From Raja brachyura (taxonomy: Eukaryota): DNA of 64,000 nucleotides. Below the pieces are notes generated by a model. The model did not search any database, was not told the origin of the DNA, and saw nothing but the letters and a program-made list of their open reading frames with translations. Both the position numbers and the translations under genes were made by a program. Shown here piece by piece: positions 9,447 to 50,774 of this stretch (position 1 is the first letter of the stretch; each line of letters starts with the position of its first letter). The stretch lies in NCBI GenBank assembly GCA_963514005.1, contig OY740811.1, positions 18,104,001-18,168,000 of the forward strand. Direction: 5' to 3'.

Positions 9447-9587
9447 CCCCATGTGGAAGGCCCGACTTGTGACACTTGTAAACGTGGCCACTTCTACCTG
9501 AGCACGGAGAACAGAGAGGGGTGCCTGCCATGTTTCTGCATGGGAGTGACCCAGCATTGCAGCAGCTCCCCCTACTACAGGAAACTG
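9447..9587 (+). CDS. HSPG2: Perlecan exon (PHVEGPTCDTCKRGHFYLSTENREGCLPCFCMGVTQHCSSSPYYRKL)
   Basis: ttccag acceptor, gtaggt donor, phase 0/0. The GCLPCFCMG motif is typical of perlecan domain III. Confidence 0.95.
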
Positions 9588-12144: not shown

Positions 12145-12339
12145 GTCGCCAGTCCATTTGTTCCACCAAATAACTTCCAGAACTTCTCCCTGGTGAGCCG
12201 CCAGCGCACGACGCACATCACCTCCGGATTCACGGTGACGGTGAGAGAAGGCCAGCCGCAGCTCTCCTTCGGGCGCTTTGGGCAGTACACGCAGGAGTCC
12301 TACTACTGGCAGCTTCCGGAAGTCTTTCAAGGGGATAAG
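12145..12339 (+). CDS. HSPG2: Perlecan exon, start of third laminin IV module (VASPFVPPNNFQNFSLV...ESYYWQLPEVFQGDK)
   Basis: ctgcag acceptor, AAG|gtaagg donor, 195 nt, phase 0/0, YWQLP..QGDK motif. Confidence 0.95.
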
Positions 12340-14819: not shown

Positions 14820-14858
14820 CGGGAGGAATTCTTTGCTCGCATTAGACGTGGGCACAAG
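14820..14858 (+). CDS. HSPG2: Candidate cassette micro-exon (REEFFARIRRGHK)
   Basis: Strong acceptor ttctgtccctttctgcag, donor AAG|gtagag, 39 nt, open, phase 0/0 like the host intron. No transcript evidence. Confidence 0.5.
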
Positions 14859-15360
14859 GTAGAGTGATGCCGTCTCCGTGCTTTGATGGTTGTGTTTGCT
14901 TGAGTTTGTCCCTGCACTGATGACTTTAGCGTTAATAATGCCGTGTTTTTTGGAACATAACCGAGGTGGAATTGGATCTAAACATCCAGTGTCATGGGCC
15001 AGAGTACCTTTGTGAGCATGTGGTGTGTGTCTTTCTATTGTGCCCAAGTGCTGTGCAAAGATCTGGTGCTGCTAACGACCTGTTGGCTCTGATTAGGAGA
15101 GCGGACTGCATGCCAGTAATCTCCAGGTGGTTGTCAGACACACACAGGCACCTAGTGAAAGGAAAGGGCGATGAGCTAGAAATTTACATTTCCCCCAAGG
15201 AGAAAGCCCACATTTTCTCAAGCAGGGAAAGCAATGGTTGAAGGCATTGCACTACGATGAAAAGTTTATATTATGAGAACCAATTGACAATTTAATGAAT
15301 TACCTCCCCAATGATCTGTGGCCACCACCAGTTTACATTCTTACCACCTGCATGGCACTT

Positions 15361-15808
15361 GGGCGGCTTGGTGGCGCAGCGGTAGAGTTGCTGCCTTACA
15401 GCGTCAGAGAACCAGGTTCGATCCTGACTACGGGTGCTGTCTGCACGGAGTTTGTACATTCTCCCCGTGACCTGAAGAAGGGTGTCGACCCGAAACGTCG
15501 CCTATCTCCTTCGCTCCTTAGATGCTGCTGCACCCGCTGAGTTTCTCCAGCTTTTTGTGTAACCCTCGATTCTCCAGCATCTGCAGTTCCTTCTTTAACT
15601 CCCCGTGACCTTGTGGGTTTTCCCCGGGTGCTCTGGTTTCCTCCCACATTCCACACATGTACAGGTCAATTGACTTGGGTAAAAATTGTAAATTGTCCCG
15701 AGTGTGCAAGATAGAGATAGTGCATCGGAACCGCTAGTCAGCACGGACTCGGTGACCTGAAGGGCCTATTTCCACTATATCTATAAACTAAACGAAACTA
15801 AACTAAAA
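15361..15808 (+). mobile_element. tRNA-derived V-SINE (HE1-like) with nested Penelope-derived insertion
   Basis: tRNA-like head (TGGCGCAGCGG, GGTTCGATCC), V-core GGTTTCCTCCCACA, CR1-like tail with (AAACT)n. Nested insert at ~15474-15598. Confidence 0.85.
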
Positions 15809-16439
15809 CACCTTGGCTTTCTATTGTGATAGTGAAGTAAAACCCTTTCTTCCTGTTTTATTTTTTGATTGCCTTCTCTGCTATCCATTTTAATACTTTT
15901 AACAGCACCTATTTCCCAATTGCATTCGTTATTTAGTTGAAGCGTAAAACATCATCACTTGCTTTCCTTCCCCTTTACTCCGCGCTGCTATTGTCCACTG
16001 ATCACATTACCAGCTGGAGTAAATCTGGAGCTCAAAGGTCCTTCCTGACCAGTCGGAAGCTGGGATTTAAAATAGATCAGCACATGGACTAAACCCGAGC
16101 AGGCTGGAGTATCGCTTCTCAGCACATAAATATTGTCTGATTATCCAATGACATCTCCAAGTGAGAAGTTAGTGCAGCATACATTCCCAATATCTAAATT
16201 ATTTACACACTTTTCCCCAGCAACTCTTGTAGACTTTTCCTGGTGCTTGGGAACGGTACACTGGTGCCCCTCAACGAACACAGTTAATTTGATAGCTGAC
16301 ACCTGTATAAACTTTTAATGTTGCAAAGTGCACCAATTGTCCAGAAGAACATCAGCATTATATTTTGAGATGAGGTCACAAAATGAACTGTGACCAAAGG
16401 ATTAAGGCTCAAGGTAAAAGAGGAGAATGCGAAAAAGCA

Positions 16440-16870
16440 ACTTATAACCATATAACAATTACAGCATGGAAACAGGCCTTCTCGGCCCTTCCAGTCCGTG
16501 CCAACCATTTATTTTCCCCTAGTCCCATCTACCTGCACTCAGACCATACCCCTCCATTCCCTTCCCGTCCATATACCTATCCACTTTACTTTTAAATGTT
16601 AAAATCGATCCTGCCTCCACCACTTCTGCTGGAAGATCATTCCACACAGCCACCACTCTCTGAGTAAAGAAGTTCCCCCTCATGTTACCCCTAAACTTCT
16701 GTCCCTTAATTCTCATGTCATGCCCTCTTGCTTGAATCTTCCCTACCCTCAATGGGAAAAGCTTATCCACGTCAACTCTGTCTATCCCTTTCATCATTTT
16801 AAAGACCTCAATCAAATCCCCCCTTAACCTTCTGCGCTCCAAAGAATAAAGACCCAACTTGTTCAACCTT
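16440..16870 (-). mobile_element. CR1 LINE 3' fragment
   Basis: ERLNKLGLYSLERRRLRGDLIEVFK..FFTQRVVAVWNDLP. Confidence 0.9.
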
Positions 16871-17560
16871 TCGAGGAACTTCATGAGGAAACTTTCCATG
16901 AGCATGCTAATTATCAGACTTTCACTGATACTTGATCATCAGTCATTCATGAATATATTTGGAAAGATAGCGATAATTATGTTATTCCTCCTTAATACTA
17001 ATTGGAGGTCAGGTTCTCATAGACTCTGGAAATGTAATCTATCGAAATCATAGCCTGTTGTGTCTGTTGATGTGCAGCATGCTTTGAAAGACTATGTGTG
17101 ATGGATCATATTAAATTAAACCTGCTGTCTTGTTGAGCTACAGCTGGATCCCCTTTTGTAGTCTGGCTGACTATAAAACAATGGCCAGGTTGCATTTTCT
17201 GAGACTCAGCTTGCCAACGTTGCTGTTCTTGAATGCACATGTTTTTGGCGATGTTTTATTTGACTCACAAGCAACCGGCAGAGCAGAAAAGGACACAAAG
17301 TCCTGGAGTAACTCAGCGGGTCAGGCAGCATCACTGGAGAATATGGTCGGGACCCTTCTTTGGAGTCCGAAGAAGGGTCCTGACCCAAAATGTCACCTAT
17401 CCACGTTCTCCAGAGATGTTGCCTGGCCCACTGAGTTACTCCAGCACTTTATGTCCTTTTTTTAATAAACCAGCATCTGCACTTCCTTGTGTCTACTAGT
17501 TGCTGAGCGGAATGGTGGTTTTGTGGTTACTAAATAACATGCAGAATTACATTTTAATAG

Positions 17561-17662
17561 AAGGACCCATCTTTAACTGAGGAGCAACTGAGAAAGGATG
17601 CCGCCATCTGGGAACTCTTGAGCTCCTCTTCGTCGCATTCTAGGCTTAAAAGATCTTCAAAG
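17561..17662 (+). CDS. HSPG2: Candidate cassette exon (KDPSLTEEQLRKDAAIWELLSSSSSHSRLKRSSK)
   Basis: attttaatag acceptor, AAG|gtagca donor, 102 nt, open, phase 0/0. Shares a motif with the 20479 candidate; TGCATG at 17676. Confidence 0.55.
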
Positions 17663-18729
17663 GTAGCAGTAAAACTGCATGAGGAAGTCTGAAGCTTAAT
17701 TATTACTGACCGAACGTGGAGCAAGCAATATGCAAAGGAAATCTAACACCCTCCTTCATATCTGTCTAATCAGATTATTTTGTTATTTCCAAAACTGAGC
17801 TTTATTTGTTCTCCATTAGTTCTCTTGTCTTAAGTGTGGGAAACCAAGAAACAATATGTTCAGTTCACTGTATAAGATGGTGTGAGCTAACATTGCACAT
17901 AAGCTGTAAGTGGAGCATGTGAATTACTTGTTAACGAGGATCTGGTATTAATTTCTCAAGGACTTGATGAACCATGTATCCCACATACAAATCATAGGTT
18001 GTGGTCAAGCATTCTTCCACTCTAACACATGTTTTTATAAGGGCAAAACTGCTTTAACTTGGCATTTTTCTGGACATTATATTTTCCTTTAACACTATAG
18101 TTTACGAATAGGAATAAATTTGAGATTCTCGCACTCAATGGAAATGCTTCAACGGGTGACCATGAGAAAGGGTGTGATTCTGAAATTCGCAGTTGTGAAT
18201 AAATACAGTAAAACTCAAATAATAATGGTAAGGGCATCAAATAATAGTAAGGCTGGCAAATGGGGAAAAAAGGCAAGAGAATGGGTTGCGAGGGCCAAAT
18301 GACCAGCCACGATCAAATGGTGAAGCAGACTTGATGGGCCGAATGGCTTAATTCTGCTCCTTTGTCTGAAGATCTTATGACCTAATCGCTATCAGCTGTT
18401 TGACACTTTGATCAGAAACAGGGCCCCGACCCAAAAGGTTGTCTGTCCATTCCCTCCACAGATGCTGCCTGGCCCGCTGGGTTCCTCCAACACTTTGTTT
18501 CTATCTTGTGATTCCAGCATCTGCAGTTTCTGGTGTCCCAGTCTGACGCCCAACAGATTCGGCTTGGGCTCACCTGGTTCCCTTTACTCACCCACACCTC
18601 TATTTCAGAGCACCGTTTAAATTCATTGCGGACGCTGTTTCCACGCCTTTCTAAACTCACCAGGCCCTGTTCCAATATTCCTTTTACGCACACACTGGAA
18701 AATGTAACATGCTCCTCTGTAGCGTTCAT

Positions 18730-19692
18730 AAATTCACAAGTTGTAGGAGTAGAATTAGGCCATTTGGCCCCTCGAGTCTACTCCGCCATTCAATCATGGC
18801 TGATGTCTGCCACCTAATACCATTTTCCTGCCTTCTCCCCATAACCATTGACATCCGTGCTAATCAAGAATTTGTCTATCTCTGTCTTAAAACTATCCAC
18901 TGACTTGGATCATTGACCCTCTGTGGCAATGAGTTCCACAGATTAACTACCCTCTGACTAAAGAAGTTCCTCCTCACCTCCTTTCTAAAAGAGCATCCTT
19001 TAATTCTGAGGCTAAGACCTCTGGTCCTAGACTCTCCCACCAGTGGAAACATCCTTTCCACATCCACTCAATCTAGGCCTTTCATTATTCTGTAAGTTTC
19101 AATGAGGTCCCCCCTTAACCTTCTAAACTCCAGCGTGTAGAGGCCCAGTGCTGTCAAGTGCTCATCATGCTAACCCACTCATTCCTGGAACATTCTTGTA
19201 AACCTCCTCTGTATCCTCTCCAGAGCCAGCACATCCTTCCTCAGGTATGGGGCAATATATTCTCACAGTACTCCAAATGTGGCCTGACCAGAGCCTTATT
19301 GAGCCTCAACATTACATCTCTGTTTTTGTATTCCAGTCCTCTTGATATAAATGCTAGCATTGAATTTGCCTTCCTTACTACCAATGCAACTTCCAAATTA
19401 ACTTTTTGGGAGTCCTGCACCAGCACTCCCAAGTTTCTTTGCACCTTCGATTTATGGATTATCTCTCCATTTATATAATCTATGCCTTTATTCTTATTAC
19501 CAAAAAGCATGACTCTGCACTTTGCTATACTGAATTTCAACTGCCATTTCTCTGCCCACTCTCCTAACCTGTCCAAGTCTTTCTGCATTGTCCTTGCTTC
19601 CTCTACACTGCCTGCCCCCCCACCTATCTTAGCATCAACTGCAAACTTGGCCACAAAGCCTTCTATCCCCTTATCCAAATCATTAATATACA
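18730..19692 (-). mobile_element. CR1 LINE RT fragment (~1 kb)
   Basis: YINDLD..AKFA.D.KIGG..QKDLDRLGEWAEKWQ..ALVRPHLEYC and FFSQRVVNLWNSLP. Confidence 0.92.
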
Positions 19693-20029
19693 AATAAAAA
19701 TAAAAAGCAAATGAAGCACCCATCACATTCCATCATCTGTAGCCTCTTATGGGCTCCACTGAGCATTTCCCAGCCTCTGTCGCTACTTCCACCCCTCCCT
19801 CCCTCACCTGGGACTTCATCTGCCAGTGAACCTCTCCTCACCAAAATCCACCAGTCATTTGCCTTCTCCACCTCCATCACCTGGCTCCCTCCACTCCTTC
19901 AACCTAGATGCAGGGTCCTGACCTGAACCATCGACTGTCCATTTCCTCCACAGATGCTGCCTGACCCACCGAGTTCCTCCAGCAATTTAATGTTCAGCAT
20001 CTGCAGTCTCTTGTGTCTCCAAATGAACA

Positions 20030-20270
20030 ATGAATTGGTGTATCAATGGGAAGCCACAAAGACAGATGTGTACAGCAATTCGTTCTTTCCACGCACTATT
20101 AAAGCATGGAATAATCTCCACCAAGCCACGGTTGCCCAGCCAGATGCAACTAAATTTAAAGTGGCACTTTCTTCCCAATAACCCTCTCTGGCTAAACCCC
20201 TCCCTTCACCACCTCCAGTTTAAATTCCAGTTGGAATATTTTGGAGGACCAAGTAACCAAGAACCAAGGC
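20030..20270 (+). mobile_element. 3' end of a distinct non-LTR retrotransposon subfamily
   Basis: YSNSFFPRTIKAWNNL RT C-terminal motif, a stop codon, then a short ACCAAG-repeat tail. Confidence 0.55.
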
Positions 20271-20478
20271 AGCGGGTGCCGGATCATCAGTTTTACTGTT
20301 TTATTATTCACAAAACAGAGAAGCTTCTTTCTTCAAAAGAAAAATAAAATGTAAAGATTTGTGAAGAATCTGCATGGTTATTCTCTTATTGCCAGTGTTG
20401 TGATTTGCCGTGAGTGCCGTGGTAAACTGCAGGGATGATGACTTGTTATGGATGACTTGTCCCTTCACTTCCTTGTAG

Positions 20479-20778
20479 TCTGTGCCTGATATGGAAGAGC
20501 AGAAGCGTATTGACGATGAAGTATGGGCAATTATAACGGGTTTTGCTGCTGAGCGGTTGCACAAACCACACAGTCCTGTCGTGTCCAGCGGTAAAAATCA
20601 GTCCCGGTCATCGCGCCCCTTTTCTCGCCTGGCGTCAGCTGGACCTGCCGGGCCTCCTGCTCCCTCTGCCTCTCGCAAAAGTTCAGCTCATTCCGTATCC
20701 TCCCCCTCTTCAAGAACTGCCTCTTCCCATTCTTCTCTCTCCCCATCTCTGCTTTCTCAACCTGCCGACCACAAAAAG
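20479..20778 (+). CDS. HSPG2: Candidate cassette exon, Ser/Pro-rich 100 aa (SVPDMEEQKRIDDEVWAIITGF...SLLSQPADHKK)
   Basis: cccttcacttccttgtag acceptor, AAG|gtatgg donor, exactly 300 nt, open, phase 0/0, no recognisable repeat. Overlaps ORF 20482..20823. Confidence 0.65.
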
Positions 20779-21134
20779 GTATGGAACTTTTTGCATTATG
20801 AAAAGTGTAAATCACCCCTTTAAGTACAGTCCTTGCATTCTACACAAAGTGTGTCGGAAGGAACTGCATGCAGATGCTGGTTTAATAGACACAAAAAGCT
20901 GGAGTAACTCAGCGGAACAGGTCGCATCTCTGGAGAGAAGGAATGGGTGACTCTTCGGGTCGAGACCCTTCTTCAGATATTCGAGACCACTCTTTTGGTG
21001 GAGGGTGGAACAAAACTATGCATCACAATGCAAGCTAAGATAAAGAATGCCTTTGATGAGGATCAGTGGAGTAAATGGTTAAGGTTAGCCAAAGATAGTA
21101 ACAAGTCTAACATTGTAAAAATTGTATATTAAAT

Positions 21135-22226: not shown

Positions 22227-22316
22227 ATGAAACACTTCTCTAAGATCCCCTCACTACAAGCCGAGGAATCAGCAAATCTTATTGCTTCCTCCGTGTGGGG
22301 CCCAAGACCGGAGAAG
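22227..22316 (+). CDS. HSPG2: Candidate cassette exon (MKHFSKIPSLQAEESANLIASSVWGPRPEK)
   Basis: ttgattttccatgcag acceptor, AAG|gtagcc donor, 90 nt, open, phase 0/0. TGCATG at 22332 and 22360. Confidence 0.55.
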
Positions 22317-25291: not shown

Positions 25292-25444
25292 ATGGCGTTG
25301 CTTGCTGTTCTGTGTAAACTTTCTCTGTTCATCTTGTCTCTGCCTCTTTCTCTGTCCCAGTATGCTCTGCTTTACAAGGGCTTCAGCCTCCTGCCTGAAA
25401 ACAATTTCTATTGGCGACTTCCACATCAGTACCTGGGCAACAAG
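25292..25444 (+). CDS. HSPG2: Candidate alternative exon: signal-peptide first exon (ATG 25292) or internal exon 25361-25444 (YALLYKGFSLLPENNFYWRLPHQYLGNK)
   Basis: Paralogous to the end of exon 12145-12339 (FYWRLPHQYLGNK vs YYWQLPEVFQGDK). AAG|gtaacc phase-0 donor, ACCATGG Kozak context, polypyrimidine tract plus cag ending at 25360. Confidence 0.75.
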
Positions 25445-26552: not shown

Positions 26553-26645
26553 GTGACATCCTACGGCGGACGCCTTCGTTACACGCTCTCCTACGACTCG
26601 GGGTTCCGGGGAACTGCAGTACCAGATGCGGATGTCCAGATCATT
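26553..26645 (+). CDS. HSPG2: Perlecan exon, Laminin_B (VTSYGGRLRYTLSYDSGFRGTAVPDADVQII)
   Basis: ccctcag acceptor, gtacgt donor, phase 0/0, SYGG.LRY motif. Confidence 0.95.
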
Positions 26646-28164: not shown

Positions 28165-28248
28165 GGTAACGATATCACCTTGGTTACCTACCACACTCAT
28201 CAGCTGCGGCCGAGAGAGACCATGAGCTTTGAGGTCATGTTCAAGGAG
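28165..28248 (+). CDS. HSPG2: Perlecan exon (GNDITLVTYHTHQLRPRETMSFEVMFKE)
   Basis: tttcag acceptor, GAG|gtaaag donor, phase 0/0. Confidence 0.93.
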
Positions 28249-28851: not shown

Positions 28852-29082
28852 CAACTTTGGATGCGTCCAGATGGACAGCCGGCCACCAGGGAGCATCTGC
28901 TGATGGTCCTCGCTGACCTGGATGAAGTCCTCATCCGGGCCACCTACTCGACTGACATGATCTCTGCCAGCCTCTCTGACGTGAGCATGGAGATCGCAGT
29001 GCCCTTCTACACCAGCCTGGGCCAGGCACTGGAGGTGGAGGAATGCCATTGCCCGCAGGGCTACCATGGCTTGTCTTGTCAG
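28852..29082 (+). CDS. HSPG2: Perlecan exon (QLWMRPDGQPATREHLLMVLADLDEVLIRAT...VEECHCPQGYHGLSCQ)
   Basis: Near-identical to the perlecan motif RPDGQPATREHLLM.LADLDE.LIRAT. cacacag acceptor, CAG|gtgact donor. Confidence 0.97.
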
Positions 29083-30954: not shown

Positions 30955-31068
30955 GACTGTGCGCCTGGTTATACGAGGACCAGCAGAGGCCTTTACCTGG
31001 GACACTGCGAGCGGTGTGAATGCAACGGACACTCGGATGCCTGCCATCCGGAGAGTGGTGCTTGCTCG
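30955..31068 (+). CDS. HSPG2: Perlecan exon, laminin EGF (DCAPGYTRTSRGLYLGHCERCECNGHSDACHPESGACS)
   Basis: Long pyrimidine tract plus ctag acceptor, gtacat donor, phase 0/0. Confidence 0.96.
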
Positions 31069-40163: not shown

Positions 40164-41484
40164 GTTTGTGATCTGCACCATTATGTACTCATCATCCTCT
40201 CCTTCAATGGTGCATGGCATTCCACCACCTTCCCCTGCACGACCTTCCCCTCCCTTGATTTGCATTGATTCCCTCAACGCAATCTGGTCTTAATCCATCA
40301 AATTAAATCCCGGTACTAATATTGTTTGAATTCAATTTTAGTTAAATAAAACAAATTTACTTGGAAAATGTAATTAACTGGCTTTGTTCGTCTGCATACA
40401 ATTAAGATTTTGTTACTGTTGTGCAAAGCTGTTCATTTCAACAGCTTCCGATCACAATGGTGTATGATGGATGCAAATTCTTATTCATAGCTTCTTTGCA
40501 ATATTCTTTATTAATATGATATTCTTAATTAATATAATTTATCGTTGCAATTCTCTCACAATAGACGATAGCCATTTAGCCCAACAAATCTATGCCAGCT
40601 CACAGAGCAGTCCCATTAATTCTCTTTCCCTATTTACTTTCTTCTATTTCTAATTCCGATTAATTTTCCCCCTTCATTCTCCTGCAGCCCACTCACGCTA
40701 GGGAATAACTTACAGTAGCTAGTTAATTACACCATCGTGATTTTGGGATGTGAGTGGAGATGGAACACTCACAGTGTGGCATGGTGGTGTAGCAGGAGAG
40801 CTACTCCCTTTCAGCGACAGTGACCCAGGTTCGATCTTGACTACGTTCTCCCCATGAACTGCGTGGGTTTTCTCTGAGATCTTCGGTTGCCTCCCCCTCT
40901 CCAAAGACGTACATGTTTGTAGGTTAATTGGCTTAGTGTAATTATAAAATTGTTCCCAGTGTGTGTAAGATAGTGTTCGTGTGCAGGGATCGCTGGTCGG
41001 CCTGTTTTGGGGCTGTTTCCGCGCTGTATCTCTGAACTAAACTAAACAGAGAGACTCCACTCAGTCGCAGAGAGAACGTGGCATTTCCACATCGATGATA
41101 CCGAGGTCAGGATCGAACCTGGTTTGCAGAAGCTGACGTAGGAACACTATCCAACTTCCCCCACTTGCGTGTATGCGGGGGAAGTTACTGGAGTTGGCTT
41201 GCAGAATTTTTTTTTGTCTTCCAATTGTATCAGGTTAATTCTGAAACTATATTGGACAAAAAGGTCTCCCATTGAGTTTTCAGAGATCAGAGGTGCTTTT
41301 AGACTTTCCAGTTTGGTGCTATGAAATTATGTGTAAAGTTGTAGATATTTTCTTTTGATTTTATGTATCTAAGACAACCACTGTAATATTTTCATTTATT
41401 TATCTGTCAGTTCTGACACTGACGAGCCAATTTAGTTCAACACTGTGAACTTTATCCATTTAAAACAACTATTGGATCTCATTA

Positions 41485-46820: not shown

Positions 46821-46874
46821 CACCGACACAGGTCCATTTTCACACATTTGAAACGGCAGAAGGATACAGACAAC
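46821..46874 (+). CDS. HSPG2: Candidate inter-Ig cassette exon (APTQVHFHTFETAEGYRQP)
   Basis: aaattcacag acceptor, consensus gtaagt donor, 54 nt, open, phase 1/1 like the host intron. Confidence 0.65.
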
Positions 46875-49196: not shown

Positions 49197-50774
49197 CAGT
49201 GGCTTGCAAAAGTTTTCATACCCCTTGAACTTTTCCATATTTTGTCACGTTACAACCACAAACGTAAATGTATTTTATTGGGATTTTATGTGATAGACCA
49301 ACACTAAGTGGTGCATAATTGTGAAGTGGAAGGAAAATGATACATGTTTTTTTCAAATTTTATTACAAATAAAAAACGGAAAAGTGTGGCGTGCAAAAGT
49401 ATTCAGCCCCCCTGAGTCAATACTTTGTAGAACCACCTTTCGCTGCAATCACAGCTGCAAGTCTTTTGGGGTATGTCTCTACCAGCTTTGCACATCTAGA
49501 GACTGAAATGTTTGCCCATTCTTCTTTGCAAAATAGCTCAAGCTCAGTCAGATTGGATGGAGAACATCTGTGAACAGCAATTTTCAAGTCTTGCCAGAAA
49601 TTCTCAATTGGATTTAGGTCTGGACTTTGACTGGGCCATTCTAACACATGAATATGCTTTGACCTAAACCATTCCATTGTAGCTCTGGCTGTATGTTTAG
49701 GGTCGTTGTCCTGCTGGAAGGTGAACCTCCGCCCCAGTCTCAAGTCTTTTGCAGACTCTAACACATTTTCTTCCAAGATTGCCCTGTATTTGGCTCCATC
49801 CATCTTCCCATCAACTCTGACCAGCTTCCCTGTCCCTGCTGAAGAAAAGCATCCCCACAGCATTTCACAGTGGGGATGGTGTGTTCAGGGTGATGTGCAG
49901 TATTAGTTTTCCGCCACACATAGCGTTTTGCATTTAGGCCAAAAACGTCAATTTTGGTCTCATCAGACCAGAGCACCTTCCTCCACATTTTTGCTGTGTC
50001 CCCCACATGGCTTGTGACAAACTGCAAACGGGACTTCTTATGGCTTTGTTTCAACAATGGCTTTCTTCTTGCCACTCTTCCATAAAGGCCCGATTTGTGG
50101 AGTGCACGACTAATAGTTGGCCTGTGGACAGATTCTCCCACCTGAGCTGTGGATCTCTGCAGCTCCTCCAGAGTTACCATGGGCCTCTTGGCTGTTTCTC
50201 TGATCAATGCTCTCCTTGCCCGCCCTGTCAGTTTTGGTGGACGGCCATGTCTTGGTAGGTTTGCAGTTATGCCATACTCTTTCCATTTTCGGATGATGGA
50301 TTGAACAGTGCTCCGTGAGATGTTCAAAGCTTGGATATTTTTTATAACCTAACCCTGCTTTAAACTTCTCCACAACCTTATCCCTGGCCTGTCTGGTGTG
50401 TTCCTTGGGCTTCATGATGCTGTTTGTTCACTAATGTTCTGTAACAAACCTCTGAGGCCTTAACAGAACAGCTGTATTTATACTGAGATTAGATTACACA
50501 CAAGTGGACTCTATTTACTAATTAGGTGACTTCTGAAGGCAATTGGTTGCACTGGATTTTACTTAGGAGTATCAGAGTAAAGGGGGCTGAATACTTTTGC
50601 ACGATACACTTTTCAGTTTTTTATTTGTAAAAAAATTTGAAAACCATGTATCATTTTCCTTCCACTTTGTGTTGGTCTATCACATAAAATCCCAATAAAA
50701 TACATTTACGTTTGGTTGTAACGTGACAAAATGTGGAAAAGTTCAAGGGGTATGAACACTTTTGCAAGACACTG
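49197..50774 (-). mobile_element. Near full-length Tc1/mariner DNA transposon (DD34E)
   Basis: TA target-site duplications (TSDs) at 49195-49196 and 50775-50776. About 200-bp terminal inverted repeats (TIRs) starting CAGTG.CTTGCAAAAGT. Encloses transposase fragments. Confidence 0.95.
49417..50415 (-). pseudogene. Tc1 transposase, frameshifted into three pieces
   Basis: MKPKEHTRQARDKVVEKFKAGLGYKK / ..GRPPKL..ARRKPLL..WSDETK..HTIPTVK / [29 protein letters not shown]. There are 34 residues between the second D and E. The HGGGSI motif is deleted near 49863. Confidence 0.93.

What the first reader, a model, noticed from the sequence alone, without database searches (positions are those of the whole stretch)
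14820..17662. Two furin-type cleavage sites in consecutive candidate exons
Seen: RIRR in REEFFARIRRGHK and RLKR in SHSRLKRSSK. Knowledge: R-X-K/R-R is the furin/proprotein convertase consensus. Inference: including these exons could make perlecan cleavable in the secretory pathway, separating domains I to III-2 from a C-terminal chain that restarts with the duplicated Laminin_B start. That would be a splice-controlled processing switch.
Basis: inference. Interest (0 to 1): 0.72.

Follow-up and report, generated by a model that had tools for sequence, protein, structure and literature searches.

The report
Optional furin-site loop in perlecan
Perlecan, a main building block of basement membranes, has an optional block of exons, found in gene models from skates to mammals, that adds a loop with a likely furin cutting site, so splicing would decide whether the protein is nicked into two chains that are predicted to stay linked.

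Summary
Both motifs are real. They lie in the first two of five phase-0 exons (615 nt, 205 aa) inside perlecan's third L4 domain. A skate RefSeq model matches 199 of 205 residues, and isoforms exist with and without the block (6 and 2 of 8). Contigs of a relative fit spliced exon 2-3 inclusion. The block occurs in 65 genera examined, chimaera to mammals. Site 2 (RLKR) has the pattern of a convertase site: R-x-K/R-R in 30 of 30 fish and amphibian genera, variable flanks, predicted disordered linker; it decays in mammals (0 of 20). Site 1 (RIRR) lies in a helix conserved throughout, so is weaker evidence. Exon 5 is a conserved duplicate of 28 L4 residues that can replace the original in a model. 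RBFOX elements follow 4 of 5 exons. Cleavage is not shown; no human sequence was retrieved; ten paper searches found no description. This scan noted the same cassette before in another genome.

The parts
9447..9587 (+). Constitutive exon: end of an LE domain and Cys1-3 (codons at 9531, 9537, 9558) of the LE domain that is split by L4 III-3
12145..12339 (+). Constitutive exon A: first part of L4 III-3; its last 28 codons are the segment that exon 5 duplicates
14820..14858 (+). Cassette exon 1 (13 aa), predicted helix, holds site 1 RIRR at 14838-14849
17561..17662 (+). Cassette exon 2 (34 aa): predicted helix, then a predicted disordered linker with site 2 RLKR at 17642-17653
20479..20778 (+). 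Cassette exon 3 (100 aa): conserved D-x-x-I/V-W helix, then a Ser/Pro/Ala-rich disordered stretch; single copy in the genome
22227..22316 (+). Cassette exon 4 (30 aa), weakly conserved linker
25361..25444 (+). Cassette exon 5 (28 aa): conserved duplicate of the last 28 residues of exon A, including the Laminin_B start
26553..26645 (+). Constitutive exon where L4 III-3 resumes; joined directly to exon A in the skipped isoform
   Evidence: P0299 against the window
28165..28248 (+). Constitutive L4 exon
28852..29082 (+). Constitutive exon: end of L4 III-3 and Cys4-6 of the split LE domain (Cys4 codon at 29044)
30955..31068 (+). Constitutive exon: Cys7-8 of the split LE domain and start of the next LE
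17676..17681 (+). TGCATG element 14 nt after exon 2; others at 15107, 20865, 22332 and 22360, after exons 1, 3 and 4

Best explanation
These are the first two of five optional exons that add a 205-residue loop to perlecan's third L4 domain, and the second motif (RLKR) is likely cut by a furin-type protease, which would nick perlecan into two chains predicted to stay joined. SHOWN: exon structure; isoform models with and without the block; conservation. INFERRED steps: (1) inclusion is tissue-restricted and promoted by RBFOX proteins through downstream UGCAUG elements; (2) the included protein is cut after site 2 in the secretory pathway; (3) the chains stay tethered by the Cys2-Cys4 disulfide of the split LE domain and by the shared L4 beta-sandwich; (4) the duplicate segment of exon 5 can take the place of the original 28 residues in the sandwich, so the cut relaxes the loop and leaves helical tails on both chains as a new binding surface on domain III. 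Site 1 is mainly part of a conserved basic helix and may or may not be cut. In mammals the block is kept but shorter, and site 2 has decayed to R/K-x-R-x-x-R or is lost.
For: Exons: skate model 199 of 205 identical; 6 of 8 models of that skate carry the block and 2 skip it; 10 of 15 frog models carry it and 5 skip it. Contigs in runs X2 and X3 end exactly at the exon 3 donor, the exon 2 bin has 95/116 of their depth, unique intron bins have none, and the 171 letters upstream equal 102+39+30. Site 2: R-x-K/R-R in 30 of 30 cartilaginous fish, bony fish and amphibian genera and 9 of 13 reptiles; in 33 non-mammal rows P4, P2 and P1 are each basic in 32, P2 swaps between R (20) and K (12), while P3 takes 9 residues and P6 12. 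AlphaFold2 places site 2 in a low-confidence coil (145-161) between two helices. Tether: cysteines fall 3 before and 5 after the insert, none inside; LE pairing and undisturbed L4 insertion are from PMC6744579; model residues 32-446 align to perlecan III-2 structure 9I5A (Z 25.0, rmsd 2.7, 203 aligned). Duplicate: 19.9 of 28 residues shared between species against 18.1 for the original; the N-part without the original segment and the C-part with the duplicate fold together at ipSAE 0.87, best control 0.00, runs agreeing in at least 97% of contacts, partner pLDDT 81-83 (mark reached by 51 of 78 solved and 2 of 108 mismatched pairs; a like structure is solved, so this shows likeness). TGCATG within 300 nt after 4 of 5 cassette exons against 1 of 18 other exons, Fisher p 0.003.
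Against: No cleavage, protein or tissue data. Site 2 in full form is absent from 20 of 20 mammals, 4 of 13 reptiles and the one bird; site 1 is broken in 5 of 20 mammals, so cutting is not needed everywhere the block is kept. In the full-length model the original segment, not the duplicate, completes L4, and mean pLDDT is only 56. The cut C-product folded alone gave the duplicate only pLDDT 65-73 and an unclear register. The RefSeq models are predictions; the runs laid are only guessed to be RNA (the tool marked X2 and X3 'probably DNA'), the exon 2-3 joint was not among the 15 joints shown, and the exon A-exon 1 joint was not seen directly. The genus set was found with insert queries, which favours proteins that keep exon 1. 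A second skate's 5 models lack the block. The RBFOX test was made after seeing the motifs (two motifs looked at).
Confidence: 0.55

Rival explanations
1. The block is an uncut binding and spacer insert: the basic helices bind heparan sulfate or a protein partner, the Ser/Pro stretch is a mucin-like spacer, and the arginines are kept for binding.
For: Exon 1 is conserved at nearly all 13 positions, not only the arginines, and is helical in the model. Mammals keep the helices and the duplicate while losing full site 2 (0 of 20); three mammal genera examined (Marmota, Nycticebus, Kogia) show no intact motif at either site in their models.
Against: Site 2 keeps only P4, P2 and P1, with R/K exchange at P2, inside a linker that varies freely; a binding surface does not predict that spacing. 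In mammals P6 is basic in 9 of 10 rows, which could be a weaker convertase motif (the P6 rule is recalled).
Confidence: 0.27
2. One reading: cleavage frees domains I to III-2 from a C-terminal chain that restarts at the duplicated Laminin_B start.
For: Site 2 looks like a real convertase site; the duplicate is conserved and gains some order when the C-product is folded alone.
Against: Cys2 (codon 9537) and Cys4 (codon 29044) lie on opposite sides of both sites and pair in LE domains. The duplicate covers only 28 of the 65 residues of exon A, so the C-chain lacks the first L4 strands and half an LE domain; those N-chain residues make about 180 predicted contacts with it.
Confidence: 0.1
3. Both sites are cut and the 34 residues between them are released as a small peptide, while the flanking chains stay linked.
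For: Both motifs are intact in 30 of 30 fish and amphibian genera and the segment between them holds a conserved helix.
Against: Site 1 lies within a predicted helix next to the L4 core (pLDDT about 55); no peptide data.
Confidence: 0.06
4. The exons are an alternative transcript start, mutually exclusive with exon A, or an annotation artefact.
For: Models are computational; some hold only parts of the block; the exon A-exon 1 joint was not seen directly.
Against: In the insert-bearing models listed the block follows exon A in frame; the contig length upstream of exon 3 equals exon 2 + exon 1 + 30 nt; conservation from chimaera to mammals rules out chance.
Confidence: 0.02

Closest known systems
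Perlecan/HSPG2 domain III-3; RefSeq predicted isoforms (skate XP_032903835.1, frog XP_069802948.1, rat XP_038967229.1)
   Same: Same gene and same insert; the skate model is 199 of 205 identical and maps onto all five exons.
   Different: These are automatic models with no function attached; the perlecan reviews checked by keyword (PMC6266596, PMC9010944) hold no 'furin' and name other splice variants.
Glypicans (furin-like cleavage into two disulfide-linked subunits; PMC4859157)
   Same: Works like it: a proteoglycan core nicked by a convertase, with the chains held by disulfides.
   Different: Unrelated fold; here the site comes in by optional exons, inside an L4 domain, and the cut is only predicted.
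RBPMS/RBFOX2/MBNL-regulated Hspg2 exon of smooth muscle (PMC6613909, PMC10570038)
   Same: A regulated cassette in vertebrate perlecan with RBFOX2 among its regulators.
   Different: A single exon of about 52-56 nt; no exon of this block has that size, and its forward primer reads like the end of the SEA domain (judged by eye).
Spliced inserts of agrin and C. elegans unc-52 isoforms (PMC4859157, PMC6266596)
   Same: Basement-membrane proteoglycans tuned by tissue-specific splicing.
   Different: The passages seen describe inserts in LG and Ser/Thr regions or long and short isoforms, not a convertase motif or a duplicated piece of the host domain.
Perlecan III-2 crystal structures 9I5A/9I5B and laminin alpha2 L4b 4YEP/4YEQ
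   Same: Same L4-in-LE fold.
   Different: Neither has an insert; no solved structure was matched to the helices.

Membership tests
Perlecan (HSPG2) domain III-3 | L4 domain inside an LE domain, followed by LE repeats and then Ig domains, in exon order | tested here: met
   Skate perlecan residues about 1306-2275 map in order across 6431-62906 at 75-100% identity; Pfam Laminin_B and EGF_laminin.
Alternatively spliced in-frame cassette | AG/GT ends and frame-preserving lengths | tested here: met
   39, 102, 300, 90 and 84 nt, all phase 0-0.
Alternatively spliced in-frame cassette | Transcripts with and without the exons | tested here: met
   Predicted models: 6 with and 2 without in one skate, 10 and 5 in one frog. 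Contigs fit inclusion; skipping was not seen in reads.
Furin/proprotein convertase site | R-x-K/R-R consensus | tested here: met
   RIRR and RLKR.
Furin/proprotein convertase site | Site 2: conservation confined to P4, P2, P1, in an exposed flexible linker, small P1' (rule recalled) | tested here: met
   32 of 33 basic at each position, P3 free, P1' Q/A/S in 31 of 33; coil with pLDDT under 50.
Furin/proprotein convertase site | Site 1: the same criteria | tested here: inconclusive
   Motif in 44 of 44 non-mammal genera, but neighbours are as conserved and the model has a helix at pLDDT about 55.
Furin/proprotein convertase site | Enzyme-dependent cleavage after P1 | not testable with these tools
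   Needs expression or N-terminomics; no ProP predictor was available.
Convertase-nicked, disulfide-linked two-chain proteoglycan (glypican-like behaviour) | Disulfide spanning the cut | tested here: inconclusive
   Cysteine count and the published LE pattern imply Cys2-Cys4; residues 28-34 and 437-443 are both in the predicted interface; the bond itself was not read from coordinates.
Published RBPMS-activated Hspg2 exon | Single exon of about 52-56 nt | tested here: not met
   Supplement row against exon sizes.
RBFOX-activated exon | UGCAUG in the downstream intron | tested here: met
   4 of 5 against 1 of 18 exons within 300 nt; conservation of the elements and regulation were not tested.

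The most novel reading that the evidence does not exclude
A natural splice-gated, protease-triggered strand-swap switch: the cassette supplies a second copy of two L4 strands and a furin site; the cut lets the duplicate displace the original segment, exposing a basic helical tail on the heparan-sulfate-bearing chain (or releasing a 34-residue peptide), which gives muscle or nerve basement membranes a two-chain perlecan with a new binding site, overlooked in vertebrates for lack of annotation.
Probability: 0.2. Interest if true: 0.82.

Novelty: new variant of a known kind. Interest (0 to 1): 0.62.

Why it matters
Vertebrate perlecan is treated as a single core protein with few, uncharacterised splice forms (PMC6266596), and L4 domains have no known function (PMC6744579). 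A cassette kept from chimaera to rat gives a defined, testable isoform: a processing site, a duplicated structural segment and likely tissue-specific splicing control. If human HSPG2 carries it (not checked here), these exons could hold variants that clinical screens for Schwartz-Jampel syndrome miss, and perlecan fragments now put down to extracellular proteases might come partly from this form.

Tried and rejected
Exon 3 alone found nothing among proteins of 176-2000 residues (perlecan is longer), no Pfam family and no usable Atlas hit: no evidence either way. No run on record as RNA was listed. A first lay over the whole block was not carried out, so the joints exon A-1, 1-2, 3-4, 4-5 and the skip joint were not seen. 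In one search repeats filled the joint and loose-end tables. The RBPMS-regulated Hspg2 exon was rejected as the same event. ACTAAY (Quaking) elements: 1 hit in the ten flanks, dropped. An internal donor at 12240 that could make exon 5 replace the end of exon A is used by none of the models I looked at; dropped. The C-product model was ambiguous. No human, mouse, lamprey or hagfish protein and no teleost protein with exons 1-2 appeared among the listed hits (45 of 45; best 120 of 201); most bird and snake representatives showed no insert, which is not evidence of loss. Among the 150 representatives, only vertebrate proteins showed the short-spaced double motif typical of the insert; annotation limits this. 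Paper searches without a description of the cassette; only the open library was searched, most hits were seen as listings only, and supplements of splicing atlases that I did not open may list these exons.

Full report
Observation. RIRR (14838-14849) and RLKR (17642-17653) are in the sequence, in a 39-nt and a 102-nt exon with AG/GT ends. The window is perlecan: a skate RefSeq model maps in order from 6431 to 62906. The two exons lie in the 14-kb intron between exon A (12145-12339) and the exon at 26553, with three more phase-0 exons (20479-20778, 22227-22316, 25361-25444). All five end in AAG before the GT and together encode 205 residues without cysteine. Exon 3 is single-copy in the genome.

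The exons are real and optional. A search with an L4 exon returned a frog perlecan with the same insert. Two searches with insert regions listed 45 of 45 and 120 of 201 hits. A skate model has a 205-residue insert, 199 identical to the window's five exons. Of 8 models of that skate 6 carry it and 2 skip it; 5 of 5 models of a second skate lack it; of 15 frog models 10 carry it and 5 skip it. These are computational models. Contigs from 4 runs of two other organisms were laid on 17450-20900. In X2 and X3 one contig lies on 20477-20778 from its letter 170, with 11 differences; X5 also ends at 20778. The exon 2 bin has depths 20.8 and 62, which are 95/116 of those contigs' depths, and unique intron bins have none. 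The 171 letters before exon 3 equal exon 2 + exon 1 + 30 nt, as expected if the contig starts at a branch at the exon A donor; this is arithmetic, the letters were not shown. The tool only guesses that these runs are RNA.

Conservation. I took one protein per genus for 65 genera with exon 1 or exon 2, leaving out models with no insert, with only exons 3-5, or without a visible name. Site 1 is R-[MIL]-R-R in 44 of 44 non-mammals and 15 of 20 mammals. Site 2 is R-x-K/R-R in 6 of 6 cartilaginous fish, 4 of 4 bony fish, 20 of 20 amphibians, 9 of 13 reptiles, 0 of 1 bird and 0 of 20 mammals (R-x-x-R in 14 of 20). The two differ in kind. Around site 1 nearly every position is fixed. Around site 2, in 33 non-mammal rows, P4, P2 and P1 are each basic in 32, P2 alternates R and K, P3 takes 9 residues and P6 takes 12. 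That is the pattern expected when a protease's specificity, not a fold, is being kept. In 10 mammal rows P2 is never basic but P6 is in 9, and P1' is often Leu, which I recall as unfavourable. The set is biased towards proteins that share words with exon 1.

Structure. AlphaFold2 on the skate stretch with 43 rows (mean pLDDT 56) builds L4 from residues on both sides of the insert at pLDDT about 75-90 and matches perlecan III-2 (9I5A; Z 25.0, rmsd 2.7, 203 aligned). The insert has three helices (111-125 with site 1; 131-146; 163-183), site 2 in a coil between the second and third, and a long disordered Ser/Pro stretch. Helices 2 and 3 are an internal repeat (5 of 5000 shuffles score as high), a lead taken from earlier finding e1-9106380. 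The L4 domain sits between the third and fourth cysteine of an LE domain. PMC6744579 (passages) gives LE pairing as 1-3, 2-4, 5-6, 7-8 and reports that laminin alpha2 L4b is inserted without disturbing it. By homology Cys2-Cys4 spans both sites, so a cut would nick, not separate. I reached this before seeing the earlier finding (note; look-up), which says the same for another genome and is not independent support.

The duplicate. Exon 5 repeats the last 28 residues of exon A at only 8 identities in skate, yet is as conserved between species as the original (19.9 against 18.1 of 28 over 10 proteins). In the full model the original is used and the duplicate is disordered. Folded as two chains, the N-part without the original and the C-part with the duplicate give ipSAE 0.87 against a best control of 0.00, partner pLDDT 81-83, at least 97% agreement between runs, with duplicate residues 304-307 contacting 60-64 (the mark is reached by 51 of 78 solved and 2 of 108 mismatched pairs). 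A like structure is solved, so this shows that the duplicate is fit to complete the fold, not that it does. The C-product alone was ambiguous.

Regulation. TGCATG, the RBFOX element (recalled), lies within 300 nt after 4 of 5 cassette exons and 1 of 18 other exons (Fisher p 0.003; 5 hits against 0.63 expected). The test came after seeing the motif. It suggests muscle, heart or nerve inclusion; no tissue data were obtained.

Literature. Ten searches gave no paper on this cassette. Seen as keyword passages only: PMC6744579, PMC4859157, PMC6266596, PMC9010944, PMC10570038 and PMC6613909, plus one supplement row of the last. The known RBPMS-activated Hspg2 exon is a different, 52-56 nt exon. The cassette is present in RefSeq predictions, so it is annotated but, as far as searched, undescribed.

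Verdict. A real, ancient optional cassette in perlecan domain III-3. Exons real and optional: about 0.95. Site 2 cut in this lineage: about 0.65. Chains tethered if cut: about 0.85. Strand swap: under 0.5. New variant of a known kind, interest 0.62; held down because cleavage is untested, the site decays in mammals and the human gene was not examined.

Noticed in passing
window 46821-46874 (+): A second optional exon, 54 nt, in a domain IV linker; 11 of 13 skate models include it and 2 skip it. A TGCATG lies at 40211, after the preceding exon.
   Followed up: partly
window 25361-25444; proteins P0244, P0245, P0246, P0248: Models from a monkey, tarpon and two turtles join exon A directly to the duplicate exon 5, without the furin exons; other models drop exon 1, 2 or 3 singly. 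The block may be spliced in several combinations.
   Followed up: no
protein P0260 (elephant shrew): The L4 start reads as a hybrid of the original and the duplicate segment: either a deletion by recombination between the copies or a mis-joined model.
   Followed up: no
window 17561-17563 and mammal/tetrapod orthologues: Most tetrapods have an N-x-S/T sequon at the start of exon 2, just after site 1, which skate lacks; a glycan there could shield site 1.
   Followed up: no
window 49761-50348 (-): Open frame resembling a Tc1/mariner transposase (judged from recall), apparently a remnant.
   Followed up: no
window 18260-20350: High-copy repeats (LINE- and SINE-like) fill the intron between exons 2 and 3 and dominate read depth.
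   Followed up: no
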